A stretch of 36,126 nucleotides of DNA, taken from IMG/VR virus record IMGVR_UViG_3300033405_000047, positions 1 to 36,126 of that record; one strand, given 5' to 3'. The DNA comes from a virus. Lineage: Duplodnaviria > Caudoviricetes. The translations under genes were made by a program, and so were the position numbers. Below are positions 1 through 23,824 of the stretch, one piece after another (position 1 is the first letter of the stretch; each line of letters begins with the position of its first letter). Below the pieces are notes generated by a model. The model was given only the letters and a program-made list of their open reading frames with translations, had not been told where the DNA came from and ran no database searches.

Positions 1-2012
1 GCCCCTATGTTAAGCGTGCTGCTATCGGTGCCGGAAAGCGTAAGCGTGTTGCTTACGGTCAGCGTTTTACTCGTAGTGCCACCGGCAATCGAAAAGCCTA
101 TGGTCAGCGAAGATTCCGTGAGCGGCGATAACTGGCTGGTCAGGGCCACGGTGCCGCTCGCTGCCGGTATAGTCAGCGTATAGCTCGTCGTGCCGCTGTT
201 CGCACTGGTAAAGGTTGTATACCCGGTAGATGAGCCGAGCAACAACAAATCGCTGTTGGTGAACTTCTGCGCTGCCGTCCATGTCTGGGCCGATCCGAGA
301 ACAGCGGGATTGGTCAGGGCCGCTTGCACGGTCGTACCGATCATGGAGCTGTCCAACACCGTGTATCTAGTCCCGCCATGGGTCAGGTACAAGGTGCTGC
401 CCGAATATTCCATCGCCCCATTTGCGGCCGTCGTAAGCAAAGTCCCTGACTGCCAATACAGGGGTGCGCCCCCGGGCGCCGCCGTGCCGACATCCATGGT
501 GAGAGAGCTTGTCAGCGTGCCGCCGCTAAATGAGCCGGTACCGGCCTGATACGCCCACCCCGTGCCGGTCCAGTAGACATACCCGGCTGATGACGGTGAC
601 GCAATGGGATAACCGCGAATGCCCGTCACCAGACTGGAGCCGTTGATATCGGTTCCGGTCGAAATCGGGATGAAATAGCCGGTTGTGAGGCTCAACGCGA
701 GGGTGCCGCTTGATGTTATCGGCGATCCGGATATCGTCAGCCCCGTTGGGGTTGTCATGGCCACGCTGGAAACCGTTCCGCTCGATCCTCCGGATGGCAG
801 AACTGAACATACCGTAGAACCACCCAAGACCGTCAACTTGCGCGGGTAATATCCGGCTGAGCACGAATAATCCACGAAGACAGCAACCTGAGCATCCGTA
901 GGGAAAGCTGTTGTTGAGTTGCTGGCGACGGCACCTGTTGGGGTGTTCATCGGGTTATTCAAAACCGCCGAGGAAATGTTCTTCCATGCCGCTGAGCCGG
1001 ATGAACCGCTGCCCGCATGAGCCGCAACATAGGTCACAACAGCCGACTGGGACGGGACAAGGCTTGCGCTGTTCGCAGCCATCGTGCCGTCAGTCGAAAG
1101 GAACGTGGTGGTGAACCATGTACCAATTGCAGAGGTGAGAGCCGACCATGTATCGTAAATCCAGGAGGAAACCGAGCTTGCGGAGACCGCAGCATTTGCC
1201 GTGGTCTGTGCGGCGCTAGCAGCGGCTCTGGCCGTTGCATCCACTCCGTTGTGCGGATGGCCCGAATAGTTGAGATAACCTGGGTCGCGCACGGTGATGT
1301 TGCCACTTCCATAAGATACATTGTTGATCGTCTGAGATTGTATGACGTAGCTGCCTGCGGGTTGTTTGCCTGCCAGAATAGATGCATGACCTGATGAGTA
1401 GTTACTATACCCAGCTGCTTGTGTTGAAGGTGCGTAAACCCCAGTGAATGCAGACTCAAGAGCTGCAATAAGATTTGACCAGGTAAATTTACTTAATATG
1501 TTGCCAACCCAGTACGTAAATGTATTGGAAGAGACAGGGCTGTTGTTGCTGCTGATGTTATTGGTTGCTCTGTTGGGGTCCATGGCAGCCGAAATGTTAG
1601 GAAAAGCTGAGATATTCGATGCCGACGCATTACCAGCCGGCCCTTGGGGGCCTGCCGAGCCGGTTGCACCTGTGGCGCCAGTGGCACCGGTTGCTCCAGT
1701 AGCCCCTTGTATGCCTTGCGGCCCCTGTGGGCCGGTCGCCCCCGTAGCGCCTTGGGGACCTGTTGGGCCGGCCGGACCCTGAAGCCCATTAATGCCACGA
1801 ATACGGCCGGCGCCTGAATAAATGCTTTGGATAAAGTTTCCCAGCGTGCAAGGGTCGTACGAAGTATCAACGGTAGAACCGTTACGCCCAACGGCGATAT
1901 GATCTCCACATTGAGGATAAACGTTCAGCCAGTCATAAATAAACGATGAATTGGCCTGGCAGATAGTAACCACCGTCAACATCAAAATCGTCGCAAAATA
2001 CAATCTTTTCAT
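1..2012 (-). CDS. Tail-fibre-position protein, partial (>670 aa), with N-terminal signal peptide, collagen-like GXY repeat and Ser/Thr/Gly-rich body
   Basis: Manually translated. ATG at 2012 overlaps the gp48 TGA (ATGA) and the frame is open to base 1, so it is absent from the ORF track. Starts MKRLYFATILMLTVVTICQA-NSSF. 19 GXY triplets at 1626-1796. Occupies the Mu fibre position after gp48. Confidence 0.85.
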   Translation of the reverse strand, partial: MKRLYFATILMLTVVTICQANSSFIYDWLNVYPQCGDHIAVGRNGSTVDTSYDPCTLGNFIQSIYSGAGRIRGINGLQGPAGPTGPQGATGATGPQGPQGIQGATGATGATGATGATGSAGPQGPAGNASASNISAFPNISAAMDPNRATNNISSNNSPVSSNTFTYWVGNILSKFTWSNLIAALESAFTGVYAPSTQAAGYSNYSSGHASILAGKQPAGSYVIQSQTINNVSYGSGNITVRDPGYLNYSGHPHNGVDATARAAASAAQTTANAAVSASSVSSWIYDTWSALTSAIGTWFTTTFLSTDGTMAANSASLVPSQSAVVTYVAAHAGSGSSGSAAWKNISSAVLNNPMNTPTGAVASNSTTAFPTDAQVAVFVDYSCSAGYYPRKLTVLGGSTVCSVLPSGGSSGTVSSVAMTTPTGLTISGSPITSSGTLALSLTTGYFIPISTGTDINGSSLVTGIRGYPIASPSSAGYVYWTGTGWAYQAGTGSFSGGTLTSSLTMDVGTAAPGGAPLYWQSGTLLTTAANGAMEYSGSTLYLTHGGTRYTVLDSSMIGTTVQAALTNPAVLGSAQTWTAAQKFTNSDLLLLGSSTGYTTFTSANSGTTSYTLTIPAASGTVALTSQLSPLTESSLTIGFSIAGGTTSKTLTVSNTLTLSGTDSSTLNIG

Positions 2013-2773
2013 TCGTCACCATTCCCTTCCGCGTTGTCTCCTGCATTCCCGAGAGCTATATCGTCCGTATTACCCATCATACCTGTCGTTGTTGACCCGT
2101 CACCATTCCCGAGTGCCGCATCGCCTGTATTCCCAAGCGCCATATCTCCGGCATTGCCCTGCATCCCCATGATCCCCGACGAATCGTCTATGTAGTTGAG
2201 CAGGAAATGCGCCGGCTTCAGAATTTCCAACCTCGTGGCCAAATCCGGTGTCGGTATGATGTTTGGCGTCGACAGGATCACTACATCCCAGATCCACGGC
2301 AGAATGGCGTTCTCCATGGCGAGGGTGTCGCCGGACATGCTGATTCCTGCCTGGAAGAATTGCCACGGCTCTTCCGTCACCGGATCGCCGGAACAGAGCC
2401 AGTCCGCCTCGCTCTCGACATAATCGTCGATGCGGATCGTGTAGCCCATGGCCGCCGCCAGGGCGACGAAGTAGGGCATCTTTATGTCGCCGGGCGTCAC
2501 ATGCCGATGCCATACCGCGAGCTGACGCTCTTCTGTTGTTGCGCCTTCCGGTGGGGTGATCTGGTACTCCGCCTCCCATTCGGGCAACGTCTCCACCGCT
2601 GTCAGTGGGTTGCATTCGAGGAGCAGATCATCGGCGCGCCCGGCAATGCGCGCCGGCTCCTGGGCCAGACCGGTCAGGAAATCGGTCATTACCCCGGCAT
2701 ACAGATTCCAGGCCGCTCCGGGCGGCAAAAGCGCTTGCAGCTCAGCCAGGTATGCGGAGGCGGTCAGAGCCAT
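2009..2773 (-). CDS. Mu gp48/YmfQ-like baseplate wedge protein with acidic repeat C-terminal extension
   Basis: LQALLPPGAAW, ETLPEWE and ILKPAH motifs; directly after gp47. Confidence 0.85.
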   Translation of the reverse strand: MALTASAYLAELQALLPPGAAWNLYAGVMTDFLTGLAQEPARIAGRADDLLLECNPLTAVETLPEWEAEYQITPPEGATTEERQLAVWHRHVTPGDIKMPYFVALAAAMGYTIRIDDYVESEADWLCSGDPVTEEPWQFFQAGISMSGDTLAMENAILPWIWDVVILSTPNIIPTPDLATRLEILKPAHFLLNYIDDSSGIMGMQGNAGDMALGNTGDAALGNGDGSTTTGMMGNTDDIALGNAGDNAEGNGDE

Positions 2774-3825
2774 GTGACAGTCCCCATTACGACCCTTTCG
2801 TAGGCGGTATAGACAAAGTCCCCTGCCGGAACGGTCACCGTCTCATCGGTTTCGCCATCGGCCAGGGCTATGGCCTCGTTGATGTGGCTGAGCGGGATCG
2901 AACCGGCGTTTTCACCCTCCCGTGCGACCAGGTCCGTCAGCTCCGCGATCACGTTTGTTTGCACCGCAACCGTATTGGGGGTCAGCTTGATGGTCAGATT
3001 CAGAGGCGCGGGGATCCAGGGCAACACGCGCAGGTATTTCACGTCCTCGGGGCAGATGGCGACGATATACGCGCGGACAGCGGCCAGCAGATCGTTGGTC
3101 GGCATCTCGGATCTGGTGATGGTGGAATCGGCAACGATCACCACGGCCACGGTTCCGGGACCCTGGTCAAGGGGAATGGTCCAGGCGCGCAACACGCCGG
3201 TGACCTGTTCAGCCCAGGTGGCGTAATCATTTTGATTGCCCCCAGCGGGCTTCTGGCGCTTGTAGGCCAATACCCTGGCCCTGAATACCTCGATATCCTC
3301 GATATTGGCGCCATAGCAAAGGCCTGGGGCTGCTACGACGGCCGTGCCCGCGACACCCTCGATGGTGTTGAGCAGGTCAAGGGTGGTGCCGGCGGCGCAG
3401 TTGCCGAGACTGCCTGCCGTGGTGTCTATGATGCTGACTGTCGCTGTACCATTGACAATGGGGACGTCGGCGGTTGAGGTGTATTCCTCGCCGTCGGAGC
3501 GTTGCCAGGAGGTTCCGGCGGGAATCACCATTCCGTTGTTGCCGGCTACGGTGATCGGGCCGTAGCTGAAGGTGGCCGGATTCTGGGTCAGACCATATTC
3601 GGCGCCGGCGATCACCAGTTCATCGGTATCACAGGAGGTAATGAAGATCTGGAGGGCGATCCAACCGAGATAGCCGTATTGGCCGAATGCCAGGCCCGCG
3701 GAGGCGCGGCCGATGACGGCGGTATTGGCGCGGCGCAGGGTGGAATCCGTGCCCTCCAGGTTGCTGTCGATATCGGTAGCGATGCGAGTGATCAGGTCGC
3801 CCAATGTTGGTGTGCTAAATGGCAT
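2764..3825 (-). CDS. Baseplate J / Mu gp47-like protein
   Basis: MPFSTPTL start, GGN.NDY..WA..V.GV.RAW and GPGTV motifs; synteny. Confidence 0.9.
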   Translation of the reverse strand: MPFSTPTLGDLITRIATDIDSNLEGTDSTLRRANTAVIGRASAGLAFGQYGYLGWIALQIFITSCDTDELVIAGAEYGLTQNPATFSYGPITVAGNNGMVIPAGTSWQRSDGEEYTSTADVPIVNGTATVSIIDTTAGSLGNCAAGTTLDLLNTIEGVAGTAVVAAPGLCYGANIEDIEVFRARVLAYKRQKPAGGNQNDYATWAEQVTGVLRAWTIPLDQGPGTVAVVIVADSTITRSEMPTNDLLAAVRAYIVAICPEDVKYLRVLPWIPAPLNLTIKLTPNTVAVQTNVIAELTDLVAREGENAGSIPLSHINEAIALADGETDETVTVPAGDFVYTAYERVVMGTVTWL

Positions 3826-3844
3826 TGCCTTCTCCTGGAACCTT

Positions 3845-3914
3845 GTGAATGGTGAATAGTGAATGGTTAAATCTTAGAATCGCTTTTATTCACCATTCAC
3901 GTTTCACCATTCAC
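3845..3914. repeat. Heptamer (GTGAATR)n ... (YATTCAC)n inverted array, copy B1
   Basis: gtgaatg gtgaata gtgaatg ... cattcac gtttcac cattcac, between gp46 and gp47. Confidence 0.9.
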
Positions 3915-3934
3915 GCCTTTTGCCTTTCTTGCAT

Positions 3935-4381
3935 TCAATTACCCTTCCAGAACAGCTCAAAACGGAATTTGGCCGGGGTACCGGTGGGCCGGAAGATCTG
4001 CACGGTCAGACCGAGCAGTCCATCCCTCACTATTACCGCCTGGGCCGCCACGCTATCCGCCACGCCATCCTCCACCATCCAGGCAAGCGCCTCCTCGGCA
4101 TACTCCTGGGCTCTGCTCAGGACGTCCGAAAGCTGCTTTTCCCGGGAGAGGAGCCAGAGCCGAGAGCCGATCAGGTCGCCATCCACATCCGAAAACTGAT
4201 CGGCCCACCAGCCGCGCGGGTCATTGCTGTTATCCGGCAGGACATCGTCCGGCTCGGCCCGGCGGTCGGTGAACAGGCTGATGATGACCGCCGTTTCCAG
4301 GCCGTCGTCTTCAGCCAGGCCGGGAGGGGAAACCTGCCATTGGCCGGCGTTGTTGATCCAGTATGTGCGGATATCGGCCAT
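3935..4381 (-). CDS. Mu gp46-like baseplate protein
   Basis: LETAVIISLFTDRRA, RGWWAD and IGSRLWLLSREK motifs. Confidence 0.93.
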   Translation of the reverse strand: MADIRTYWINNAGQWQVSPPGLAEDDGLETAVIISLFTDRRAEPDDVLPDNSNDPRGWWADQFSDVDGDLIGSRLWLLSREKQLSDVLSRAQEYAEEALAWMVEDGVADSVAAQAVIVRDGLLGLTVQIFRPTGTPAKFRFELFWKGN

Positions 4382-4392
4382 TTAATTGTGTC

Positions 4393-4740
4393 TTACGGGA
4401 TCGACGGAGGAGTGAACGAGCACCCCAGAGTTGAGATCTTGTTCTCCAGCTTCGCCATGATCTCCGCCACCTTTGTCATGATCAGCGTGGTCTCCTCGAT
4501 CATGGCCGCGATAGAATTCTTGACGGCATCTATTTGAGCGGTAATCCACGCGATTGTCGTAACCAGATCAACCGGCGGCGTGGTCTGGGCCGTCAGGGAT
4601 GTCATCTGTGCCTTCAGATCGGCCAGCAATTTATTCAGCTCCGCCTTGATCTCGTCCGAAGCCTCCTGCAACAGCTCACAGGTGTTAATGGCATCTATCC
4701 GATCCTCAATGGATTGCAGGTAATTGGTGATGTCGCTCAT
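4393..4740 (-). CDS. Hypothetical coiled-coil protein between spike and gp46
   Basis: 115 aa, heptad-rich helical sequence; start overlaps the gp45 stop. Confidence 0.75.
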   Translation of the reverse strand: MSDITNYLQSIEDRIDAINTCELLQEASDEIKAELNKLLADLKAQMTSLTAQTTPPVDLVTTIAWITAQIDAVKNSIAAMIEETTLIMTKVAEIMAKLENKISTLGCSFTPPSIP

Positions 4741-5270
4741 GAACCGAGTCCTCCAACGATGATCCCGTTCTTGACGGTTACTGATTGTCCGGTCTTGTCG
4801 GTAAAAACGCCACTGACGCCTGTGGACACCTCCAGATGGTTGGTGGTTTTGGCATAGCCGTCCAGCACGATCTGGGGGGATTTGACGGTAACCTGAAGGG
4901 GGGAATTGATGACGATTCCTTTTCTCGACAGGTACACAATCTGTTTCAAATCGTCATACAGCGTCGATTCCCCTGACACCAGGTTGGTAGGACGATAACG
5001 GCCATCGTCCATGGCAATCACCACCAGATGATCCCGGTTGCCGCAGATCGATGCCGCCACTGCCTGGGCTCCGGAAAATGGCACGGAGGTATGGCCGTAG
5101 TTTTGGATCCTCTCCACACTGCCGTGGCTCTCGTCTGCCATGATGGTGATCTGGACGCGCTGAATCGGCTGGGAGTCATCGATCAGGGTAACCACGGCCC
5201 GGCCAATCATGAGCCTGATGGCGCGGGCGTACGGCGCGATCAGGCGGTTGAATGCACCTATTAGTTCCAC
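4737..5270 (-). CDS. Baseplate spike, Mu gp45 / gpV-like
   Basis: VERIQNYGHTSVP, GNRDH and DDGRYRP motifs. Confidence 0.9.
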   Translation of the reverse strand: MELIGAFNRLIAPYARAIRLMIGRAVVTLIDDSQPIQRVQITIMADESHGSVERIQNYGHTSVPFSGAQAVAASICGNRDHLVVIAMDDGRYRPTNLVSGESTLYDDLKQIVYLSRKGIVINSPLQVTVKSPQIVLDGYAKTTNHLEVSTGVSGVFTDKTGQSVTVKNGIIVGGLGS

Positions 5271-6364
5271 CGCGGCACCTCCGCCTTACCCCGGCGCCGG
5301 TGCTTGTCGGGGAGGTTGATGAGCTCAAAGGCGGACGGCAGACAGAGGTCCATCGCGGCCTGGGTGCCGGTCTCTTCCGTCAGGGTGAACCTGACCTGGG
5401 AGATGAGCAAATCGCCGTCGTAACCCATGAAGTCGTCCTGGATCTGCACCAGTTGGTTGGGCAGCCACAGCCCTGTGGAATGCTCCCAACCCGTTACGGT
5501 ATAGGTGACCCGGTTTCCCTTGCCGATCCTGATGTTGCGCTCCCAGGTGGCCCGGTCCTGGTAGGTGCTGCCGTCGCCCTGGTAGGCGATGGTGACGTGG
5601 GGCCGGTAGCGGGTGATGGCGGTATCGTTTACGGATGCCTTGGTCTGAAAATAATGCTTCGGCTCGTTTGCCAGCGCACTGCTGTCGGCCGCCGGATGAT
5701 CCCAGGTACCGGCGCCCATGGCGGTCTGACCCTTGACGATGTATTGGCTGAAACGGTTCTTCCAACTGAAATGGCCGGTGGCGGCCTCTATGTTCTGGCC
5801 CTTGATCAAAGGAGTCGCTATCCGCTGGGTCCCGGTGCGGCCCAGGATGAGATTGCCGTTGCCGTCGGATAGCAGCAGCACGCCGCGCATGCGGGCCGCG
5901 CGGTCCAGACATTCGAACGCGGTCTCACTGTGCCAGATAGCGAAGCAGGCGAAGGGCTTGCCTACATCGACCTGTGCGATGACGTTGATGCCAAAGGGCG
6001 TGCAGAGGTCCTTGGCAATCCTCGTCAGGCTTGCATTGCGCCATTCCCCTGCCTTATGCACGGCCGCGCTGTCCACCAGATCTCCCGTCTTGTCACGGCC
6101 GGTGATTTTGATGGTATGGGAAGACTTATCGTAGCTGGGGTCAAAATCATCAACATAGCCGCTGATTACCTGAGTGGAACCAATAGAGAGCGTGCAGGCG
6201 TCGCCCGGATTGATCCGCCACGCCGATGGCTGATTGGGCCAGCGCTCGGTGGTGGTGAGATCGAACGTGCCGGCGATCTGCTCGATGCCGAGGGTGATGC
6301 CGATGGTCTGCCAGCCGGCGTAACTGGAGCCATTGACCTGGAGGGTGACGTCAGGCGTTGACAT
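5261..6364 (-). CDS. Baseplate hub, Mu gpP/gp44-like
   Basis: GRDKTGDLVD and RFSQYIVKGQ motifs; synteny. Confidence 0.9.
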   Translation of the reverse strand: MSTPDVTLQVNGSSYAGWQTIGITLGIEQIAGTFDLTTTERWPNQPSAWRINPGDACTLSIGSTQVISGYVDDFDPSYDKSSHTIKITGRDKTGDLVDSAAVHKAGEWRNASLTRIAKDLCTPFGINVIAQVDVGKPFACFAIWHSETAFECLDRAARMRGVLLLSDGNGNLILGRTGTQRIATPLIKGQNIEAATGHFSWKNRFSQYIVKGQTAMGAGTWDHPAADSSALANEPKHYFQTKASVNDTAITRYRPHVTIAYQGDGSTYQDRATWERNIRIGKGNRVTYTVTGWEHSTGLWLPNQLVQIQDDFMGYDGDLLISQVRFTLTEETGTQAAMDLCLPSAFELINLPDKHRRRGKAEVPRWN

Positions 6365-7553
6365 TTGTCAATACCTCCAACGGACGCCCACCGGGAATAA
6401 AGCCGGGATTCCGAATCTTGTTGCGGGTGATGATGTCCGCAGCCTGGGTGGCATCGCCATAGAGGCGATACGCCAGGACCAGGGCCGGGACGGTTTGGGG
6501 CGGCGTGTACGAGACGATCAGCGCCAGGTTGGCTCCCCTGGTGGCGATATCCGTGACCACGGAGGCGCGGAGATCGGCGAAGGCCGTATAGAGGGTGATA
6601 TCGGTTAATGACTCCATCTGGAGGTCGAGCTGGTCCGTCACCGCCGTCCGCACGGCCACGGCGTCCTGGCGCGAAGCAAAGGTCATCTCGGCGGACGTGG
6701 CCGCAGCCCCGGCCACGGCGGCCTGGCGCACGATGGCGATGGTCGCCGCCTGATTGGCGTTCGCCTGCACGCGGCTGGGTGTCGTGCCGGCAATAGCTGG
6801 CCAATCGGACCCGAAATCGAACATGCCCTGCCAGATCCCGAATGCGGTTGCGGGATCGGTGCAGAGAGCGACCGCGCCGTAGATCCGGAGAATGATGGCA
6901 TTGGCCAGCGCGCTCGGGGTGTTGATTAAGGTGGAACATGCGGTCTCGAAGCCGGCCAGGTCGCTGAAAAATTGGGAGGCAGGGAGATCCGTGGGGATCA
7001 GTTGGGCTATGGCCTTCAGTTTGGCGGTGAGCTGCTGAAGGCCGGAAAGGGCCGATGCACGGACAAATGCTGGGTTCTTGGCGACCGTGAATGTTTTGAC
7101 GTAGGATGCCTGGCTGGCGGCCGTGGCCGCGTCGGCTTTGTCGGAGACGTTACCGGCGGTATCAAGGGCGGTGCTCGGCTGTTTATTCTGGCCGGAAAGG
7201 GCGAAAGAGGCGGTGAAACGAGCCATGCCCCCTTCCGCGGTTGTCTCGCGCACCTTGACCTTGGCGGTGACGTCGACCTTGAGCGTGCCGTAGGTAGGAT
7301 GGACCAGGATGCCGGGACCGGCGGTCTCGAAGGCGGCCATGAGGAGATCCCTGGCTGCCATGTAGTCGGGGCCGATGACATACATCTCCAGGGTGAACTC
7401 GCGCGGGCATTTCCCCATGTCCTCGAAGTAGGCATCGTCACGCAGGGGATAATCATGGCGCACGTTCCTGCGGCCGACATCCGCATCGAGCGATTGCCAG
7501 AAGAAAGGGCAATTGCGGTAGCTGCCCTGGCGTAATTGATCGCGCCAAGCCAT
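6351..7553 (-). CDS. Mu gpN-like DNA circularization/tail protein
   Basis: W..QLR..SYR, GRR...HDYP.RD, GPG.LVHP.YG and C-terminal PALVLAYRLYGD...NPGFIP motifs. Confidence 0.92.
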   Translation of the reverse strand: MAWRDQLRQGSYRNCPFFWQSLDADVGRRNVRHDYPLRDDAYFEDMGKCPREFTLEMYVIGPDYMAARDLLMAAFETAGPGILVHPTYGTLKVDVTAKVKVRETTAEGGMARFTASFALSGQNKQPSTALDTAGNVSDKADAATAASQASYVKTFTVAKNPAFVRASALSGLQQLTAKLKAIAQLIPTDLPASQFFSDLAGFETACSTLINTPSALANAIILRIYGAVALCTDPATAFGIWQGMFDFGSDWPAIAGTTPSRVQANANQAATIAIVRQAAVAGAAATSAEMTFASRQDAVAVRTAVTDQLDLQMESLTDITLYTAFADLRASVVTDIATRGANLALIVSYTPPQTVPALVLAYRLYGDATQAADIITRNKIRNPGFIPGGRPLEVLTNVNA

Positions 7554-9358
7554 TAATGACTCACCAGCATCGCACCGGAATCAAGATTGATTTGTACATT
7601 GCCATGGCTCTTTTCCATCTCCATCACCTTGACCGAGGAGTCGCTCATAATTTTTAGAGTGATTGACCCGCTTACCGCTCCGTCGCCACGGCGATGAAGC
7701 TCGTCAGCGATCAGTTTTGCCTGGTACGAGTTGGGACCGCCTCCCATAACCAATTGCTCCGAGAGCATTTGTTGCAGCTTCCTGGTGGGATAAAGCTTTT
7801 CATTTCTTACTTCAGCTGCGCTCTTGTTTTTGGCATAGTTGACGGATAAGGCTCCCACAGCCGCGGCAACTGCGGCAGGAAGAAGCGCCGCGCCTGCGGC
7901 GGCTATTACGCTTGCCGAAGCTCCGGCCGCTCCCGCTTCTGCTGCTCCGGCAGCACTCCCGGCGGCAGAGCCGGCAGCCCCACCCATCCATTGGGACGGA
8001 AGCAGTGAAAGATGTTTGTTCACGACATAAACGGGAATAGGGCCGGCCATGCGTCCGAAACCTCCCAAGCCGCCGAGGCCACCGCTGCCACCACCACCGA
8101 ACAGGTCGCGGTACGTAGTATAGATCTTGCGGGCCAGCACTGCTCCTCCGACTATGCCGGCGCCGATGCCTACATCCTTCAGAACGTTTTTGGTGGTTCC
8201 GGGGCCGAACTTGTCCAGGAAGTTTGCAGTCGCGCGAATAGGTTTGATCAGCTTTTCGTCGGACAGGCGTTTGAAGGAGGTCTTCATATCGCCCATGACC
8301 GCGTTGAATTCCTTGGCGTTCAGGGTGGCGTCCTCCCCGATCTGGGTTCCGTCCGCTTGGACCTTCAGGTAATCGTCGAGTGTTTTCATCTGCCCGGTGC
8401 GCTTATATTCGGCTATGGCATTATTAAAACCGCGAATGGATTCGCGCTCGAACACCTGGGCAAGGTTGGTTCGCTTGCCGTGGGACTTCTCTACGATCTG
8501 TCTGAAGATGTCTGTGAGCGGCAGGTATTTCTCCTCGCCCCTTTTCCTCGCATCCTCATCAAAAAGCTTCACCCCGTTGCGCTGAAGAATCTTGATCTTT
8601 TCGGGCGATGTGATCTCTCGGATAAAGTTTTCGTACGCGGTGGCAGCCATATCCGATGATTCAACACCAGGGCGCATGTACTGGAGAATGGCGGTCATCT
8701 CACGCATCCCCTCGGGGCCGCTCCGGCCGAGGGACGCAGTGGCCGAGGCGGTGCGGGGCATGAGCTGTGCCATGTCGCGCAGAATGAAGGAACCTTGTTT
8801 TCCCAGGACGTCTTGAAGATCCAGGAGCTTGCGAACCTGTTCCGGGTCGCGGATACCCTGGAGCCGGTATTGATTGAGCATGGCGCCAATATCCACGCCA
8901 CGGGCGCCGGTAGCCCGTATGCCGACAGCGATGTTCTCCAGGTTCTCTTGGGCGAATTTAAGATCACCTGATTTGGCGACGATCTCCTCGAAGGCCGAGG
9001 TAATCTCGCTGGGATCTACGCGGATCTTCGGCATCTGGGAAACCTCGAAGATCTTCTCCTTGATCTTGTCGATCTCCTCGACCGACACATGGGCATCGAC
9101 GGCCAGTTGGGTGAACCGGGCCGAGAGATCACCCACCTCCTTGATCTGCATGGTGAGCGCGCCGCCGGTGATCAGGGCGGAATACCGGTTGCCGAGCCGG
9201 TCCAGGCCGCGCCCCGCCAGATCGAGGCTCTTGTGGAACATTTGCATGGACCGGGAGGAACCGGCAGCAAAGCGCTGCATGGAGCCCAGATACTGCTGCG
9301 CCTTGCCCTGGAGGTTGCCGGCAAGGTCGATTATGAGGGAGGTTTTTAGCTGGGCCAT
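7553..9358 (-). CDS. Tail tape measure protein
   Basis: 601 aa; IDLAGNL N-terminus, PVYVVN motif, Ala/Gly-rich hydrophobic C-terminal part; follows the tail chaperone. Confidence 0.88.
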   Translation of the reverse strand: MAQLKTSLIIDLAGNLQGKAQQYLGSMQRFAAGSSRSMQMFHKSLDLAGRGLDRLGNRYSALITGGALTMQIKEVGDLSARFTQLAVDAHVSVEEIDKIKEKIFEVSQMPKIRVDPSEITSAFEEIVAKSGDLKFAQENLENIAVGIRATGARGVDIGAMLNQYRLQGIRDPEQVRKLLDLQDVLGKQGSFILRDMAQLMPRTASATASLGRSGPEGMREMTAILQYMRPGVESSDMAATAYENFIREITSPEKIKILQRNGVKLFDEDARKRGEEKYLPLTDIFRQIVEKSHGKRTNLAQVFERESIRGFNNAIAEYKRTGQMKTLDDYLKVQADGTQIGEDATLNAKEFNAVMGDMKTSFKRLSDEKLIKPIRATANFLDKFGPGTTKNVLKDVGIGAGIVGGAVLARKIYTTYRDLFGGGGSGGLGGLGGFGRMAGPIPVYVVNKHLSLLPSQWMGGAAGSAAGSAAGAAEAGAAGASASVIAAAGAALLPAAVAAAVGALSVNYAKNKSAAEVRNEKLYPTRKLQQMLSEQLVMGGGPNSYQAKLIADELHRRGDGAVSGSITLKIMSDSSVKVMEMEKSHGNVQINLDSGAMLVSH

Positions 9359-9374
9359 GGTTGTTCCTGGGTTC

Positions 9375-9407
9375 AGACCCTAAGGGTTTTAAAAACCCTT
9401 AGGGTCT
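9375..9407. repeat. 33-bp palindrome, copy A1
   Basis: agaccctaagggtttt-a-aaaacccttagggtct. Confidence 0.95.
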
Positions 9408-9412
9408 ATCTA

Positions 9413-9560
9413 TCAATCCTGTTTCGGTATATTCGCCTGGTATCGAATCATCCGGCTGAACGGCATCGCGCCGATTTCCTGCGCGCTCCAGTGGGTCCAG
9501 GTGGCGAGGCGGAAGACCATGCTATGGAGACTTGCCCTTAGGCGCTCTATCTCGCCCCCG
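9413..9560 (-). CDS. Frameshift extension of the tail chaperone (G-T type product)
   Basis: CGGGGGCGA at 9552-9560; the shifted frame reads EIERLRASLHSMVFRLATWTHWSAQEIGAMPFSRM to TGA at 9413. Confidence 0.75.
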
Positions 9561-9893
9561 GCCGTCTATCGCCTCCAGGGTCCCGTTCTCCAGAATGATC
9601 GCCTTCTCCTGGAGCAGGTTTAAGTCATGGGCCGTGAGCTTCTTGATCTCGCCCATGGTGAGCGGTCCCGGATGATCGCCGATGTTTACGATCTGCCGGC
9701 GCAGGGTATTGATGCCGAGCATGGTGGAACTGACCAGGAGCTTGTACCCCTCGTCTTCGATAAAGACCGGGCGCTCGCTCTCCTCGGTGGCTTCGATCAT
9801 GTCGCCGGCCGTGGCTTCGCGGATCACCGCCGCCAGGTGCGACGTATCGCCGATCTTTAAACCCTGCTTTAAGGTGACGTTAATGGTTGCCAT
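9522..9893 (-). CDS. Tail assembly chaperone, Mu gp41-like
   Basis: VTLKQGLKIG, IREATAGD and L.RQI..IG motifs; between tube and tape measure. Confidence 0.88.
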   Translation of the reverse strand: MATINVTLKQGLKIGDTSHLAAVIREATAGDMIEATEESERPVFIEDEGYKLLVSSTMLGINTLRRQIVNIGDHPGPLTMGEIKKLTAHDLNLLQEKAIILENGTLEAIDGRGRDRAPKGKSP

Positions 9894-9916
9894 TTGCTTC
9901 TCCTTGCCTGTGGGAC

Positions 9917-9949
9917 AGACCCTAAAGGTTTTTAAAACCTTTAGGGTCT
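9917..9949. repeat. 33-bp palindrome, copy A2
   Basis: agaccctaaaggtttt-t-aaaacctttagggtct. Confidence 0.95.
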
Positions 9950-9956
9950 TATCTTC

Positions 9957-10313
9957 TTACATCTTCTCGCAGCTCATGCCGATGAACTTGACCGGGACCT
10001 TGCCGCCTTCGCCGGCGGTGATCTCGGGGGGAACGGACGACCAGGCGTTTTTCAGCACCCATACCTGGCCGGTATCCGCCTCGTAGGTCACCGTGGCGTT
10101 GGTGACGGCCATGATGTCTTCAAGGCTGGTGTTCACGGTGACGCTGACCACGCAATCGACGAACGGGGCCACTGCCTCTTCGGCATAGCCGTGCACTTGA
10201 TCGCCTACCACCTCCTTGCGGTTGACGCCGCCCAGGTTGAGCTTGGCGCCCTTGTCGGTCAGCATGACGTTGCCATTCCATTTTACGGTTGCCCGTCCTA
10301 CTACTTGTGCCAT
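9957..10313 (-). CDS. Tail tube protein, Mu gpM-like
   Basis: 118 aa; LGG..R..VVGD.VHGY.E motif; follows the sheath. Confidence 0.9.
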   Translation of the reverse strand: MAQVVGRATVKWNGNVMLTDKGAKLNLGGVNRKEVVGDQVHGYAEEAVAPFVDCVVSVTVNTSLEDIMAVTNATVTYEADTGQVWVLKNAWSSVPPEITAGEGGKVPVKFIGMSCEKM

Positions 10314-10333
10314 GTATGGCCTCCTCCTGGATG

Positions 10334-10366
10334 AGACCCTAAAGGTTTTGGAAACCTTTAGGGTCT
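10334..10366. repeat. 33-bp palindrome, copy A3
   Basis: agaccctaaaggttt-tgg-aaacctttagggtct. Confidence 0.95.
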
Positions 10367-10379
10367 TTGAATCGCGTCC

Positions 10380-11849
10380 TTACAGGCGGAACTGCAAGAG
10401 CCCCGCAAACTGGATGAAATTGTTGATCAGGTTGGGTGGAATCAGGGCGTTGACCCGGTTGGAATTATTGGGATCCCGCTCCACCACCAGATCGGCCTTG
10501 AACTGGTCCACATCCTCCACGAGCCCGGCATCTTCCCATTCGCGCGCCAGACAGAGCTGCTCGGCAGTGAGGATGTTGGGGGTGACTATAGGCTGACCCT
10601 CTCCGAACTTGGTGCCGTTGTCCGCCAGCTTGTGACGGGGATACTTGCTGGTGATGCGGTCGATCAGGGAGAATCGCAGGTAGCTGATCAGGGCCGGCGT
10701 GGTGATGTCGAGAAATGCGTCGCTCGCTATGCCGCTGGAGTTGGTCTGGTTCATCGAGATGCCGCGGTCGATCCTGCATGTGCCGCCGCTATCCACGGTG
10801 TAGGTTGTTATCCCGTCGTAGAGCAGTACGTTGCGTTCCGGACCGTCCCAGGCCACACCCATGGCAGGGGGCAACAGACCGGTAAGGGGAAGCGTCTTGA
10901 GCTGCCGGGCCGGGTCGATGGCCAGGGCCGCAGCCGAAACGATGCCGTTGACCGCAGCCCAGATGTACGGTGGATTGGGAACTATATTGGTGCCAATACA
11001 GTCCATCAGGAACGAGTTGCGCGTGGCGCCGTAGGTCCCGGTGGTTGAGTTGGTGCCCCGGAACGCAGTGAAGCCGATGCCGTCGATCTGCCTGGAGGGA
11101 AGCCAGCGGCTGGCCAGTTCGGCCTCCAGGGTGGCCATGGAGGTGGCGTCGCTGTACGGCGTGATGATGGCATGCCACTGCACGCTGGCCATGGCGACGA
11201 TGACCGGCGTGAGGTCCGGATTGGCCGTGCCTCCGCTCATGGGTGTGACGGTGGCGCCGATCCCCGCCGGAAACGCGTCTCCGATCTGGTAGTTGAAACG
11301 GATGTCGATATCGTTGCCGGTCAATCCCTTCCACTTGCAGGTATAGTTGACCTTGGAGGGGTTCGCCCCGTCGACGGCCGCCGTAACCGGCATGGTGCCG
11401 TCCGCCGTCACGGCCGCGACATGGGCCGTGGCAAGCTGGGCCGCCGTCATGGCGCTGGTGACCGCGGCCTGATTCAGTTTGCCGGCGATATAGCAGTTGA
11501 GGGTGCCGGCGGCCGTGGCGGGACCGGTGAAGAGCGTTGATCCGGCCGCGGCCGTTCCGGCGGGATTGTCGGCCAGGGGGACGGCCCAGGTTTCAAGCGT
11601 GGTATCGGCTGCTTTCAATGCGAGGAACATTTCGCACAGCATGGACCCTTGGCTGAACGCCATCTGGGCATCGTTGCCGGTGTTGATCTGACATAGCTGG
11701 TTAACGGCGGCTGTGCCGCCCAAGGACTGCCCGAGCACCAGGACTTTTTGCAGTTGCTGCGGGATGCCCTGATCGGCCATGGAGGGATCCACCTCGATGG
11801 CGACAAAAGGTACCCGCTGTTGGGGGATGTTGTTGAATGAGATGGTCAT
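10380..11849 (-). CDS. Tail sheath protein, Mu gpL-like
   Basis: ISFNNIP...RVP, DPARQL.TL.L, KYPRHKLA and VERD...NRVN motifs. Confidence 0.95.
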   Translation of the reverse strand: MTISFNNIPQQRVPFVAIEVDPSMADQGIPQQLQKVLVLGQSLGGTAAVNQLCQINTGNDAQMAFSQGSMLCEMFLALKAADTTLETWAVPLADNPAGTAAAGSTLFTGPATAAGTLNCYIAGKLNQAAVTSAMTAAQLATAHVAAVTADGTMPVTAAVDGANPSKVNYTCKWKGLTGNDIDIRFNYQIGDAFPAGIGATVTPMSGGTANPDLTPVIVAMASVQWHAIITPYSDATSMATLEAELASRWLPSRQIDGIGFTAFRGTNSTTGTYGATRNSFLMDCIGTNIVPNPPYIWAAVNGIVSAAALAIDPARQLKTLPLTGLLPPAMGVAWDGPERNVLLYDGITTYTVDSGGTCRIDRGISMNQTNSSGIASDAFLDITTPALISYLRFSLIDRITSKYPRHKLADNGTKFGEGQPIVTPNILTAEQLCLAREWEDAGLVEDVDQFKADLVVERDPNNSNRVNALIPPNLINNFIQFAGLLQFRL

Positions 11850-12049
11850 GGCTTGTCACCTCCGGCCGGCTTCTTGTTTGCCGGCTCTGCGGGTGGTGAG
11901 CATTCCACCACGTCTTTATCGGCCTCACGGCGCAGCCAGAAGGCGTTATGGGGCTTTTCCTCTCCGGAGGGCGCGAGCGGGATCCGGGTGGCCGGGTCGC
12001 GAACGATCAGTCCTTCGCGGGCGGGTTTGATGAAGAATGTTTGTGGCAT
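11846..12049 (-). CDS. Mu gp38-like (DUF2635) protein
   Basis: KPA..GL.VRDP...FWLRR..D.DV motif. Confidence 0.88.
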   Translation of the reverse strand: MPQTFFIKPAREGLIVRDPATRIPLAPSGEEKPHNAFWLRREADKDVVECSPPAEPANKKPAGGDKP

Positions 12050-12086
12050 GGTGACTCCTTTTTAATGACGTGAATGGCTAAAACCT

Positions 12087-12157
12087 GTGAATGGTGAATG
12101 GTGAATGGTGAATAAAACCGTTTTTAAGCCATTCACCATTCACGTTTCACTATTCAC
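12087..12157. repeat. Heptamer inverted array, copy B2
   Basis: (gtgaatg)3 gtgaata aaaccg ... cattcac cattcac gtttcac tattcac; an extra unit at 12070. Confidence 0.9.
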
Positions 12158-12161
12158 GCTT

Positions 12162-12722
12162 TTACTGAGGCAGTATGATCTTTGTCTGCGCCTCGTAAAC
12201 GCCGTCCATCGGCTGTATATCCCAATTGCCGTCGAACTCCTCGAATGCATCCAGGATGCTGATGTCGGGGATATCCTCGAACAGGACAGGCAGCGAGAAA
12301 AGGCATGCGTACAGCGATACCCCCTTGGTATCGATGGTGCCGCTGTAAAGGTTTTCCGTGCGCTCGAACTCCATGGTTCCGGTGTCTGGAACCACTAAGC
12401 AGTCGAAGTGCGGTATCACGAGGCTGATGATCTCATAGGCGCCGATCTGTACCGAGTCGCCCCTTCTGCGTGCGGCGGCGCCGCTGGCATGGGCCGTGAC
12501 GGCAAAAAAAGACCACCTGCTGTTTATGCCGACCGTGATGTTCTCCATGTCGATCTTCGGGCCGCCGGTGAAGGCGATGTAGACCGAGGGGGCGCTGATG
12601 ATGAGGCGCTTGAGCATGTCCGCGTCCCAGTCGCCGGGGAGCGAGTCCACGACCTTGAGCCTGGAGCCGAACAGGGCCTTGGTCTGCGCGATCAGGAAAT
12701 CCTCGACATCGATGAGCATCAA
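12162..12722 (-). CDS. Mu gp37-like (DUF1834) tail completion protein
   Basis: V..LPGDWD and RRGD...IGAYEI motifs; synteny. Confidence 0.85.
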   Translation of the reverse strand: MMLIDVEDFLIAQTKALFGSRLKVVDSLPGDWDADMLKRLIISAPSVYIAFTGGPKIDMENITVGINSRWSFFAVTAHASGAAARRRGDSVQIGAYEIISLVIPHFDCLVVPDTGTMEFERTENLYSGTIDTKGVSLYACLFSLPVLFEDIPDISILDAFEEFDGNWDIQPMDGVYEAQTKIILPQ

Positions 12723-13135
12723 AAGTTCCTCAGCCGGTCAGGTGTGAAGATCGGCTCCGGCTTTGACACATGGATTTGCGGCTCCGGAGCCGGGTCGTTG
12801 TCGTGGGCCGGGTTGAGATCCAATTTTCCGGCCTTGACCATTTCCAGTGTTGCCAAGGCCCGTTTGTAGCGGTTTTCGACGAATTCAGGCACCAGATCGC
12901 TGTAGAGGTAGTAGCGGTAGATATCGCACGCCAGCCGCACCAGGTTGGTCGGGACCACATCAAAAGGGAGCACATACATGGGCCGCAGATAAGGGGTGAT
13001 CTCGGCATCCCCATCGATCTGGGCCTGGGTAAAGACTTCGGCGTTGAAGGAGCCGGTCTGCTCACGGTCGGTGAGCTGGATCAGCTCCTCGATGCTGAAG
13101 CGGTCCTGCATGTCCTGTTGGGTGGCGTATGGCAT
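12719..13135 (-). CDS. Mu gp36-like (DUF1320) head-tail connector
   Basis: YAT..D...RF..EELIQLTD and LACDI.RY.LY motifs. Confidence 0.9.
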   Translation of the reverse strand: MPYATQQDMQDRFSIEELIQLTDREQTGSFNAEVFTQAQIDGDAEITPYLRPMYVLPFDVVPTNLVRLACDIYRYYLYSDLVPEFVENRYKRALATLEMVKAGKLDLNPAHDNDPAPEPQIHVSKPEPIFTPDRLRNF

Positions 13136-13148
13136 ATCGTCTCCTTGC

Positions 13149-13181
13149 AGACCCTAAGGGTTTTGAAAACCCTTAGGGTCT
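13149..13181. repeat. 33-bp palindrome, copy A4
   Basis: agaccctaagggtttt-g-aaaacccttagggtct. Confidence 0.95.
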
Positions 13182-13186
13182 TGTCT

Positions 13187-13669
13187 TTATTCCCTCTGAT
13201 GTGACCAGTAGTACGCCGTGGGGCCGGCGGTGCTGGTGTTGGAAAACGGCGTCACTGTAACCGAAGTGTATCCCCGGTTCAGCGCGATATCGAAACAGCC
13301 TCCCGGTTCGATGATCGTACTGGCATTGCTACCGAGCTGGACCCGAATCGGCACGGCGACGCCGCTGCTGTTGGTTACGCATCCGGCGGCGCGCCGGAAC
13401 CATTCGGGGTAGCCGCTTGCTGTCCCGGTATAGTTGTTGAAGGTAAAAATCAACCGGCCCTTGTTGACGCTTGTGGTGCCGGACCGCTGGAATTCGATTA
13501 TCGGAGCCTTGGCGGTATTGTTCTGGACAACAACACCGTCCACGTAAGCCGGCGTGCCAGGGGGCACCGGCGTCGTCGTGGGGATGGCGAGGGCCGAAAT
13601 GGTGCCTGCCGCGACCACGACGGCACTCAGGGCGATTATCCTGATCTTGGTAAGCTTGATTGTTTTCAT
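13187..13669 (-). CDS. Putative exported beta-rich protein in the head module
   Basis: Basic n-region, hydrophobic h-region, ALA cleavage-like site; two Cys; five N-X-S/T sequons; GGAG SD upstream. Confidence 0.8.
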   Translation of the reverse strand: MKTIKLTKIRIIALSAVVVAAGTISALAIPTTTPVPPGTPAYVDGVVVQNNTAKAPIIEFQRSGTTSVNKGRLIFTFNNYTGTASGYPEWFRRAAGCVTNSSGVAVPIRVQLGSNASTIIEPGGCFDIALNRGYTSVTVTPFSNTSTAGPTAYYWSHQRE

Positions 13670-13679
13670 GGCGTCTCCC

Positions 13680-13702
13680 GTAGGGGGCGGCCCGTGCCGC
13701 CC
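13680..13702 (+). repeat. GTAG-headed REP-like hairpin
   Basis: GTAG g gggcggc-ccgt-gccgccc; single copy. Confidence 0.5.
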
Positions 13703-13721
13703 CGGGTTGTGGGGTGTATGG

Positions 13722-14891
13722 TTAATCCTGAGTGAGCAGGACGACGTCCAGGAGGCCGAGGGTGTTCACCACCGGCAGCGGTTTGGATTCGCCGAACAGG
13801 GTGTAGCCGCTGCCGTCCGGGTTGCGGTATGGTTTGATAAAGAGCGGCATGGGTTCCAGGTTGGCGTCCAGGTTGTCCAGTGCGGCATAGGGAAGCCTGT
13901 GACCGGCATCGGTGCAGATCGCCTTGAGCGTGTTCGGGGCGATGATCGGGAGGAAATTGCCGGTCTCGGGATCGGTGTATTCCTCGGCGCGCAGCTCAAC
14001 CTTGATGGTGCCGATCATGATGTAGTTGTCTTCCGCCTTCAGGGAGACGCCCGCCTCGGTCAGCAGCTTTGTCGAGGTCAGCACCTTGGAGACGAGCTGG
14101 AATAGCCGCATGAAGACGTCCTCGCCGGCCCAGAAGAGGATCTGGGAGGTGCCGACGCCAAGGCGTTGGAAGACCTTCCGAATCTCAACGAACATTTTGA
14201 GGATGTCCATCATCAGAATGGTCGGATCGTCCAACATCTTGTAGCTGCCCTGGGGAAGCGACTGGAGGTTGCCGTAATTGATGGTGAAGGTGTCGTAACC
14301 TCCCCCCTCCACGGCAACCGGATATGAAAATTGCCCCTTGAGCGCAGCCGAGCACATGGCCTCGGTGGTGGCCCGGATTGTCCGGCGCAGGATATCGGTT
14401 TTCGTCTGCGCCCACACATCAAGGAGTTCCTTGCTATTGGGACCGCCCTGGAGGAATAGGCGCAGGTTGTTGAGATCGACACCGACAACGTCGACCTTCG
14501 GCTTGATGGGCAGAGGTTCCCAGAACGTGGTGCTCCCGGTGGAACCGACAATGGAGATTGACGGACCTCCACGCTTAGAGAGAGCCATCGCCCTGATGCG
14601 CTGTTGGACGATGTCGGAGCCTACCAGTGGTCCGGGCTGCTGCGGACGGTCCTTGAAAATTGTGTCCATGATCACGGTCGGATAGGCGGGACCAAGGATC
14701 TGGAGATAGCGGATGATCGCTTCACGGGTGAACAGGTTGCGGATCATGACGACGCCGGCGATGCCGATAAACGGAAGATGGCCGGTGGCCGCCATAACGG
14801 GCGTGCCGCCGCAGAATGCAAAGGCCGTGACGGCGAGGAGCAAGAACAGGGCCCAGACGGTGATGGTGGATCGGAGAATGCGGTTCGGCAT
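13722..14891 (-). CDS. Major capsid protein (lambda gpE-like family) with ~48 aa hydrophobic N-terminal leader
   Basis: T.EAMC..AL.G motif and C-terminal ESKPLPV; follows the decoration gene; AAAGGAG SD 6 nt upstream of the ATG at 14891. Confidence 0.85.
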   Translation of the reverse strand: MPNRILRSTITVWALFLLLAVTAFAFCGGTPVMAATGHLPFIGIAGVVMIRNLFTREAIIRYLQILGPAYPTVIMDTIFKDRPQQPGPLVGSDIVQQRIRAMALSKRGGPSISIVGSTGSTTFWEPLPIKPKVDVVGVDLNNLRLFLQGGPNSKELLDVWAQTKTDILRRTIRATTEAMCSAALKGQFSYPVAVEGGGYDTFTINYGNLQSLPQGSYKMLDDPTILMMDILKMFVEIRKVFQRLGVGTSQILFWAGEDVFMRLFQLVSKVLTSTKLLTEAGVSLKAEDNYIMIGTIKVELRAEEYTDPETGNFLPIIAPNTLKAICTDAGHRLPYAALDNLDANLEPMPLFIKPYRNPDGSGYTLFGESKPLPVVNTLGLLDVVLLTQD

Positions 14892-14925
14892 AAAGGACTC
14901 CTTTGTAGGTAAATGATGGTTCGGC

Positions 14926-15337: not shown

Positions 15338-15365
15338 GTGAATGGTGGATAGTGAATGGTGAATT
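15338..15365. repeat. Heptamer array, half copy B3
   Basis: aaaggc gtgaatg gtggata gtgaatg gtgaatt; overlaps the protease stop. Confidence 0.8.
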
Positions 15366-23765: not shown

Positions 23766-23791
23766 TTGTCACCTCCCTCGTATGGTTTGTT

Positions 23792-23824
23792 AGACCCTAA
23801 AGGTTTCAAAAACCTTTAGGGTCT
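23792..23824. repeat. 33-bp palindrome, copy A9
   Basis: agaccctaaaggttt-caa-aaacctttagggtct. Confidence 0.95.

What the first reader, a model, noticed from the sequence alone, without database searches (positions are those of the whole stretch)
1..14891. Candidate system: a tailed phage routing structural-module proteins through the host export and periplasmic modification machinery
Seen in sequence: three genes in structural positions carry export-like N-termini (fibre 1-2012, post-capsid protein 13187-13669, major capsid 13722-14891). The first two also have Cys pairs and many N-X-S/T sequons, while the sheath, tube and baseplate proteins have no such leader. Established: Caudoviricetes virion proteins normally assemble in the cytoplasm; PglB/STT3 N-glycosylation and Dsb disulfide formation act on the periplasmic side; some deltaproteobacterial PglB enzymes accept the minimal N-X-S/T sequon. 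Inference: the fibre and a head-associated protein may be secreted, oxidised and glycosylated, then docked onto particles at lysis. Alternatively they may be displayed on the lysogen surface.
Basis: partly seen in the sequence, partly recalled or inferred. Interest (0 to 1): 0.9.

Follow-up and report, generated by a model that had tools for sequence, protein, structure and literature searches.

The report
Mu-like phage fibres carry export signals
This bacterial virus and many relatives from Geobacter-like hosts start their tail fibres and a small head-region protein with secretion-signal-like leaders and paired cysteines, so these parts are likely folded outside the cytoplasm and would join the particle only when the cell bursts; the leader on the shell protein is a separate trait, and sugar-tagging is not shown.

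Summary
The window is a near-complete Mu-like myophage, probably of Geobacterales. The three leaders are real: 3 of 22 structural-module genes have one. They are two independent traits, not one system.

(1) Appendages. The fibre slot has a signal peptide in 8 of 13 Geobacterales-type Mu-like phages and 0 of 8 Desulfovibrio-type ones. Canonical gp49-type fibres occur with and without it. In relatives, a leaderless baseplate adaptor is predicted to bind the mature N-terminus of a signal-bearing spike (0.77, best control 0.00). The post-capsid protein family (19 members) always has a leader, and its cysteines come and go in pairs.

(2) Capsid. The 46-residue, two-segment leader ends in an invariant Gly, is repeatedly lost, and sits on two capsid families. 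It is likely a cleaved membrane tether, not an export signal.

PglB glycosylation is not supported: sequon excess is small, and PglB-like genes were not found in hosts of signal-bearing fibres. An aromatic-x-N-hydrophobic-S/T motif is enriched in held-out phage proteins (7 vs 1.1) but not generally in hosts.

The scan reported both traits before on other DNA. My ten literature searches found neither described. Nothing is shown experimentally.

The parts
3..2012 (-). Tail-fibre-slot protein, cut by the record end; signal-peptide-like leader, collagen repeat (residues 73-129), Cys pairs 35/55 and 384/402
   Evidence: closest homologue P0060 (717 aa) also has a leader and keeps the 384/402 pair
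1953..2012 (-). Predicted Sec/SPase I signal peptide of the fibre (20 residues, ends CQA)
   Evidence: heuristic, not SignalP
2009..2773 (-). Mu gp48-like baseplate wedge with an extra acidic G-N-x-G-D repeat tail (about residues 197-254); candidate docking site for the fibre (inferred, untested)
   Evidence: PF10076 covers residues 11-193; the tail is absent from the gp48 of record G004; no gp49-type adaptor found in the window
2764..13135 (-). Leaderless Mu-type baseplate, tape measure, tube, sheath and neck genes (gp47 to gp36): the cytoplasm-built core
13187..13669 (-). Post-capsid protein: leader plus predicted jelly-roll domain with Cys97/Cys125; member of a 19-member family found in head clusters of Geobacterales-type phages
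13586..13669 (-). Predicted signal peptide of the post-capsid protein (28 residues, ends ALA)
   Evidence: Ala-x-Ala invariant in alignment A2
13722..14891 (-). Major capsid protein, lambda gpE/YSD1-type (PF03864), made with an N-terminal leader
14754..14891 (-). 46-residue capsid leader: basic start, hydrophobic segment, Ala-x-Ala site, linker, second hydrophobic segment ending in the invariant Gly just before the position of the leaderless Met
14898..14903 (-). Ribosome-binding site (AAGGAG) of the long capsid form
15364..16404 (-). Mu gpI-type head maturation protease; one candidate for cutting the capsid leader (untested)
   Evidence: phrog_976, E 1e-97

Best explanation
This Mu-like phage likely builds its particle in two compartments: head, tail and baseplate in the cytoplasm, while the fibre and the small post-capsid protein are predicted to be exported by the host Sec pathway, trimmed and disulfide-bonded in the periplasm, and would attach to the particle when the inner membrane breaks at lysis. 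Shown: the leaders, their conservation, leader-bearing and leaderless twins, and paired cysteines. Modelled in a relative only: an exported spike docking on a leaderless baseplate adaptor. Inferred: export, timing, and that the window's own fibre docks (perhaps on the acidic tail of gp48). The capsid leader is a separate trait. It likely inserts as a hairpin that holds the capsid domain on the cytoplasmic face of the inner membrane until a protease (host, or the phage's gpI) cuts after the invariant Gly. Glycosylation is not part of the committed model (about 0.25 for any modification at the aromatic motif, about 0.1 for PglB).
For: Fibre-slot gene with a leader in 8 of 13 Geobacterales-type Mu-like phages with sequence past gp48 (window, G001, G004, G011, G135, G166, G204, G218; none in G003, G057, G084, G248, G280), against 0 of 8 Desulfovibrio-type records. 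Fisher p=0.015 without the window, relatedness not corrected. The leader-bearing proteins are of unrelated kinds: collagen fibre, beta-helix spikes, collar fibres. Twins: G004 and G166 have a leader cut just before D/G-K-T-x-F, where G003, G057, G084 and G280 start M-(x)-K-T-x-F. In G001, G011, G135, G204 and G218 the fibre is split into a leaderless gp49-type adaptor and a leader-bearing spike. For G135 the complex scored 0.77 against a best control of 0.00. That mark was reached by 116 of 157 solved complexes and 2 of 215 mismatched pairs; the runs agree in at least 42% of contacts and partner pLDDT is at least 67. The interface uses residues 1-28 after the predicted cleavage site. No sequence match to a solved structure for either partner. 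Post-capsid family: 19 of 19 with a leader; 15 have Cys pair A, 3 pair B, 1 neither, none a lone member of a pair. Capsid leader: 28 of 52 homologues, Gly at the junction in 28 of 28. In DNA, 17 of 155 distinct loci start at the leader with a ribosome-binding site, and 14 of those 17 have no start codon in the four codons at the junction. The same leader sits on a Mu gpT-family capsid in G135 (29.8 bits; best non-capsid 8.2 among 1822 N-termini).
Against: No experiment and no SignalP run. One of three complex runs scored 0.00, the job was unlike the calibration set (trimers, my own shallow alignments), and the pair is from a relative. A low-confidence model of the adaptor (pLDDT 52) had only weak fold matches to phage tailspike and baseplate parts, so a pass from memory of similar docking domains cannot be excluded. 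The window has no such adaptor, and its fibre N-terminus has no recognised baseplate-binding domain. The record ends inside the fibre gene, so a leaderless fibre beyond it is possible. The post-capsid family follows several unrelated capsid types, which argues against a capsid-specific decoration role. The second hydrophobic segment of the capsid leader is short (uncharged run 10-48, median 18). No rhomboid was found in 17 phage records, so the protease is unidentified.
Confidence: 0.55

Rival explanations
1. The proteins are exported but are not virion parts. They act in the envelope of the lysogen or infected cell, as receptor-masking or decoy adhesins, released depolymerases, or, for the post-capsid protein, a periplasmic regulator such as a lysozyme inhibitor.
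For: The post-capsid family is not tied to a capsid type. Its predicted jelly roll matches the periplasmic lysozyme inhibitor PliG (Z 8.0, rmsd 3.0, 91 aligned) about as well as GOLD domains (Z 8.6) and better than the KHP40 cement protein (Z 6.2). The endolysin itself has a signal-like start. Most capsid relatives lack the gene.
Against: In G004 and G166 a gp49-type collar fibre directly after gp48 carries the leader. The adaptor-spike model passed. The genes sit inside late morphogenesis operons. Z near 8 for a beta-sandwich may only reflect a common fold.
Confidence: 0.22
2. All three leaders are membrane tethers or folding brakes that keep the proteins on the cytoplasmic face, for example away from capsid- or tail-sensing defences, until they are cut. 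Nothing crosses the membrane.
For: This would explain all three leaders at once. T4 proheads assemble on the inner membrane and lose an N-terminal piece of the capsid protein (PMC9958956, passages).
Against: Fibre and post-capsid leaders are plain 20-28-residue signals with a small-x-Ala site and no stop-transfer segment. Cysteines co-vary in pairs. Capsid leaders and fibre signals occur independently: G011, G166 and G204 have a leader-bearing fibre and a leaderless capsid, while 8 of 9 siphovirus-type records with a capsid leader have no leader-bearing appendage.
Confidence: 0.12
3. One reading: one system that sends structural proteins, capsid included, through export, Dsb oxidation and PglB-type N-glycosylation at N-X-S/T.
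For: Pooled sequons in 12 leader-bearing proteins: 67 vs 48.9 (p=0.003); without the window, 49 vs 37.8 (p=0.033). One N-X-S/T column is kept in 9 of 19 post-capsid homologues. About 10 of 121 Geobacterales genomes have a 730-794 aa STT3-like gene. Desulfovibrio PglBs accept minimal sequons (PMC4894442, passages and one section).
Against: Held-out set 55 vs 46.7 (p=0.10). Fibre-segment homologues show the same 1.07 ratio with and without leaders (257/241 and 973/906). No PglB-sized STT3 match in G135, G166, G192, G204 or G218, the hosts of leader-bearing fibres or spikes (incomplete genomes). G084 has one and a leaderless fibre. Clear PglBs are in Desulfovibrio-type hosts. The capsid protein has no sequon.
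Confidence: 0.07
4. The leaders are mis-called starts or chance hydrophobic stretches.
For: My predictor is a heuristic, and the window's capsid gene has an in-frame ATG at residue 49.
Against: That ATG has no ribosome-binding site while the long start has one. Leader architecture is kept among proteins only about 40-70% identical.
Confidence: 0.03

Closest known systems
Phage Mu morphogenesis module (gpI, gp36-gp49; Pfam PF10076, PF04865, PF07030, PF06074)
   Same: Gene order and families from terminase to gp48; gp49-type fibre N-termini in relatives.
   Different: Capsid is lambda gpE-type; portal is fused to gpF; fibre, post-capsid and capsid genes have leaders, which Mu's do not (recalled).
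T4 head and fibre assembly (PMC9958956 and PMC3185693, passages seen)
   Same: Prohead built on the inner membrane; capsid N-terminal piece removed by a phage protease; fibres preassembled and attached last.
   Different: T4 tethers through portal and gp40, its propeptide is not described as a membrane segment in the passages seen, and its fibres fold in the cytoplasm.
Filamentous phage procoat pVIII (PMC3185693, passage seen)
   Same: A virion protein made with a leader that a host peptidase cuts after membrane insertion.
   Different: Those particles extrude without lysis and the mature coat spans the membrane; here an HK97-fold head must be filled in the cytoplasm.
Branched tailspike docking, e.g. 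CBA120 TSP4 anchor (PDB 7rej, 7rfo) and T4 gp9
   Same: A baseplate-bound adaptor domain holds a separately made spike; weak fold matches only (E 0.36-0.67).
   Different: There both partners are cytoplasmic (recalled); here the spike has a signal peptide and the adaptor has none.
Desulfovibrio PglB N-glycosylation (PMC4894442) and Geobacter OmcE/OmcS surface glycosylation with GT39 clusters (PMC9473688, PMC13712944; passages seen)
   Same: Periplasm-side modification of exported proteins exists in these host groups; PMT_2-type transferases were found in 5 of 5 prophage hosts.
   Different: No evidence that phage proteins are substrates; PglB-sized genes were not found in those hosts.

Membership tests
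Mu-like transposable myophage | MuA/MuB transposition genes with Mor, GemA and Mu-type portal, sheath and baseplate genes | tested here: met
Sec/SPase I substrates | Basic n-region, hydrophobic h-region and small residues at -3/-1 | tested here: met
   (heuristic)
Sec/SPase I substrates | Positive call by SignalP 6, and actual translocation and cleavage | not testable with these tools
   no such predictor or assay available
Dsb-oxidised proteins | Cysteines conserved and lost in pairs | tested here: met
   19 of 19 post-capsid homologues consistent; fibre pair 384/402 kept in P0060
Mu gp49-type tail fibre (window gene 3-2012) | Conserved baseplate-binding N-terminal domain | tested here: not met
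   no match to the adaptor profile in the window; only collagen-driven fibre hits. Met in G004 and G166
Capsid decoration/cement protein (post-capsid gene) | Small beta-sandwich fold like known cement proteins | tested here: inconclusive
   jelly roll; KHP40 cement Z 6.2, below unrelated rows
Capsid decoration/cement protein (post-capsid gene) | Tied to one capsid type | tested here: not met
   follows gpE-type, Mu gpT-type and other capsid genes
PglB/STT3 substrates | Host encodes PglB | tested here: inconclusive
   own host unknown; about 10 of 121 Geobacterales; not found in five hosts of leader-bearing fibres or spikes, genomes incomplete
PglB/STT3 substrates | Sequons above composition, or D/E at -2 | tested here: inconclusive
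   ratios 1.07-1.37 across sets; D/E-2 sequons 3 vs 3.0
Leader-bearing capsid with phage rhomboid (earlier scan notes) | Phage-encoded rhomboid | tested here: not met
   0 of 17 records, 0 of 8 at least 90% complete

The most novel reading that the evidence does not exclude
Geobacterales Mu-like phages run a two-compartment assembly line. Heads are built on a cleavable membrane tether, while receptor-binding spikes, fibres and a neck or head accessory are secreted, oxidised and glycosylated by a host non-PglB transferase at an aromatic-x-Asn-hydrophobic-Ser/Thr motif. They then clip onto cytoplasm-made adaptors at lysis, giving host-sugar-coated tailed virions.
Probability: 0.17. Interest if true: 0.92.

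Novelty: new variant of a known kind. Interest (0 to 1): 0.72.

Why it matters
Tailed phages are taught to assemble wholly in the cytoplasm. A lineage in which the same fibre family exists with and without a signal peptide, and in which an exported spike is predicted to dock on a cytoplasmic adaptor, makes periplasmic folding and docking at lysis directly testable in harmless, culturable hosts. If true, it would allow disulfide-bonded or host-modified receptor-binding proteins, and could keep them away from cytoplasmic anti-phage sensors. It would also mean that annotation pipelines mislabel such genes as secreted 'morons'.

Tried and rejected
Mis-called capsid start: rejected. One system for all three leaders: rejected, since the traits occur independently. 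Phage rhomboid as the capsid-leader protease: not found in 17 records. The papain-like ORF 23842-24348 (fold label recalled from its His and Cys motifs) as partner of the leader: no homologue in the other records. Prepilin-peptidase cleavage at G|F: considered from the recalled motif and dropped, because no Glu at +5 or hydrophobic helix follows. PglB: see rivals. Aromatic motif as a general host sequon: not supported (G166 3/1.8, G141 1/1.8, G067 0/0.8; first G135 sample 5/1.7; second 13/2.9, with 12 in one repeat protein). It may be a helix-capping or strand motif: its Phe lies in the predicted adaptor interface. A Desulfovibrio host control for the motif was not run. Atlas searches gave no hit at 0.9 or above. 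The viral fold search of the post-capsid model gave only weak matches to mostly unnamed proteins. gp48 and fibre scans of viral contigs gave nothing useful. The rest of the fibre gene could not be fetched. One of 13 matches to the post-capsid profile (G219, E 3e-4) was dropped as an unrelated protein. Two eukaryote-like or repeat hits and one without a matched stretch were dropped. Ten literature searches (open-access library only) found no description of exported tailed-phage fibres or capsid membrane leaders. Supplements were not read.
Full report
What the window is. The record is a 36-kb linear virus contig, 93% complete by CheckV. Pfam and PHROGs give MuA, MuB, GemA, Mor, a GH108 endolysin, terminase, a portal-gpF fusion, a gpI-type protease, a lambda gpE-type capsid protein (PF03864), gp36-gp38, sheath, tube, tape measure and baseplate gp43-gp48. 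It is a Mu-like myophage. The host is not given. The closest capsid relatives in named genomes are Geobacteraceae and a genome of the same order (48-56% identity), and the best gp48 match in a host genome is in one of them (61%). I infer a Geobacterales host.

The observation. I had no SignalP and used a stated heuristic. Three of 22 structural-module genes pass it, and they are the three named. Cys pairs are there. Plain sequons are weak: fibre 14 vs 9.6 expected, post-capsid 5 vs 1.8, but the leaderless portal also has 6 vs 2.7.

The capsid leader. Of 52 homologues, 28 carry a leader of about 45-52 residues and the rest start at M-x-N-I-R. All 28 have an Ala-x-Ala or Val-x-Ala site and end in Gly exactly before the position of the leaderless Met; 25 have a Pro shortly before it. 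In DNA, 17 of 155 distinct loci (one a near-identical copy of the window; loci with incomplete gene starts were left out) begin at the leader with a ribosome-binding site, and 14 of the 17 have no start codon at the junction. So the leader is translated. A tree of 111 capsid cores needs at least 16 changes of state, with leader-bearing and leaderless forms as near sisters. Some protein-only leaderless rows may be truncated gene calls. The same leader sits on a Mu gpT-family capsid in G135. It is therefore a dispensable, portable module. A head must be filled by terminase in the cytoplasm (established), and basic residues follow the second hydrophobic segment. I infer a hairpin tether that is cut at the Gly. 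No rhomboid was found in 17 phage records. T4 offers a precedent for membrane-bound proheads and a cleaved capsid N-terminus (PMC9958956, passages). [quoted passage not shown]

The post-capsid protein. Sequence and genome searches gave 19 members. All have a leader. Fifteen have one Cys pair, three (the window's group) a different pair, one neither, and none a lone partner. That is what disulfides, hence an oxidising compartment, predict. AlphaFold gives a jelly roll (pLDDT 73.7) with tied matches to GOLD domains, PliG, XepA and a phage cement protein (Z 6-8.6); none is decisive. The 16 members with DNA context all lie in head gene clusters, but after several unrelated capsid families. So 'head decoration' is doubtful; neck accessory or periplasmic helper are equally possible.

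The fibre slot. The window's gene is cut by the record end. Its nearest homologue P0060 (717 aa) also has a leader, and 21 of 99 proteins sharing fibre segments do. I read the genes after gp48 in related records and in 10 further Geobacterales prophages. Eight of 13 with sequence there have a leader-bearing fibre or spike; two more contigs end too early. None of 8 records whose capsids group with Desulfovibrio-type loci has one, though some of those records are incomplete. G001 has five leader-bearing genes between head and tail besides its spike. Two observations tie export to the virion. First, canonical gp49-type collar fibres exist as twins with and without a signal, the predicted cut falling at the twin's start. 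Second, five records split the fibre into a leaderless gp49-type adaptor and a leader-bearing spike. For G135 the predicted complex passed: 0.77 against a best control of 0.00 (mark reached by 116 of 157 solved complexes and 2 of 215 mismatches; runs agree in at least 42% of contacts; partner pLDDT at least 67; one run of three scored 0.00). The interface is the adaptor's C-terminal domain and the first 28 residues of the mature spike. Neither partner has a solved relative by sequence, but weak fold matches to tailspike anchors leave memory as a possible source of the pass. The window itself lacks this adaptor; its gp48 has an unusual acidic tail that I suggest, untested, as the dock.

Independence. 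G011, G166 and G204 have leader-bearing fibres with leaderless capsids. Eight of nine siphovirus-type records with a capsid leader have no leader-bearing appendage. The window, G001 and G135 have both. These are two traits.

Glycosylation. Pooled sequons were 67 vs 48.9 in the first set (49 vs 37.8 without the window) but 55 vs 46.7 in a held-out set. They show the same slight excess in fibre homologues with and without leaders. Host secreted-like proteins show 297 vs 242.6 (12 from one repeat protein), cytoplasmic-like ones 284 vs 309. PglB-sized STT3 genes occur in about 10 of 121 Geobacterales genomes and were not found in five hosts of leader-bearing fibres or spikes, which do have PMT_2-type transferases (5 of 5). 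Geobacter does glycosylate exported cytochromes (PMC9473688 and PMC13712944, passages). I noticed a narrower motif, [FWY]-x-N-[ILFYV]-[ST], after looking at the window (5 vs 0.3) and the first relatives (5 vs 1.1). It held in the held-out phage proteins (7 vs 1.1, p=0.002; 5 vs 1.1 after removing a shared homologous site) and not in leaderless late proteins (7 vs 6.5). It did not hold in host secreted-like proteins generally, and it may be structural. It is a lead, not a result.

Earlier notes and literature. The scan holds 97 notes on capsid leaders and 15 on exported fibres in other genomes, none on this genome or the post-capsid family. They are not independent evidence. My ten searches of the open-access library found no description of either trait. 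I saw search listings, and passages of PMC3556154, PMC4894442, PMC12014285, PMC9473688, PMC13712944, PMC9144972, PMC9958956 and PMC3185693; no supplements.

Verdict. The leaders are real and conserved. Export and oxidation of the appendage proteins are likely (about 0.85), joining the virion at lysis is plausible (about 0.6), the capsid leader is probably a cleaved tether, and PglB glycosylation is unlikely. All parts belong to known families, and the routing is what is new. I rate it a new variant of a known kind, interest 0.72.

Noticed in passing
window 9376, 9918, 10335, 13150, 14927, 16620, 18036, 19779, 23793, 28270: A 31-bp REP-like palindrome occurs at 10 places (0 expected by shuffling), mostly between genes; one copy lies in frame inside the portal-gpF fusion.
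   Followed up: partly
window 17319-19757: Portal and Mu gpF are one 812-aa ORF here but separate genes in G001.
   Followed up: no
window 2009-2185: gp48 ends in an acidic G-N-x-G-D-x-A-L repeat not present in the gp48 of G004.
   Followed up: partly
window 22978-25806: The lysis region has a GH108 endolysin with a signal-like start, two further hydrophobic-start ORFs, an HNH-like ORF and an ORF with His and Cys motifs recalling a permuted papain-like amidase; four of these ORFs were searched and had no homologue in the related records.
   Followed up: partly
L001:5800-7200 (record G004): This provirus runs from early genes straight into a capsid gene with a rearranged 5' end, lacking terminase, portal and protease, but keeps the tail and a leader-bearing fibre; possibly a defective or tail-only element.
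   Followed up: partly
L069:11240-17151 (record G001): Five consecutive or near-consecutive leader-bearing genes between head and sheath: post-capsid protein, a 128-aa beta protein, a collagen-type fibre, a fibronectin-III-like protein (label recalled) and an 872-aa protein.
   Followed up: partly
L288:1765-3300 and L289:17032-18279: In G218 and G192 a leader-bearing fibre gene lies between the baseplate spike and wedge genes; the G192 protein ends in the same domain as the leaderless adaptors.
   Followed up: partly
L308:10310-13900 (host G135): Three pilin-like host proteins each carry the aromatic-x-N-hydrophobic-S/T motif; a lead for a Geobacterales modification site.
   Followed up: partly
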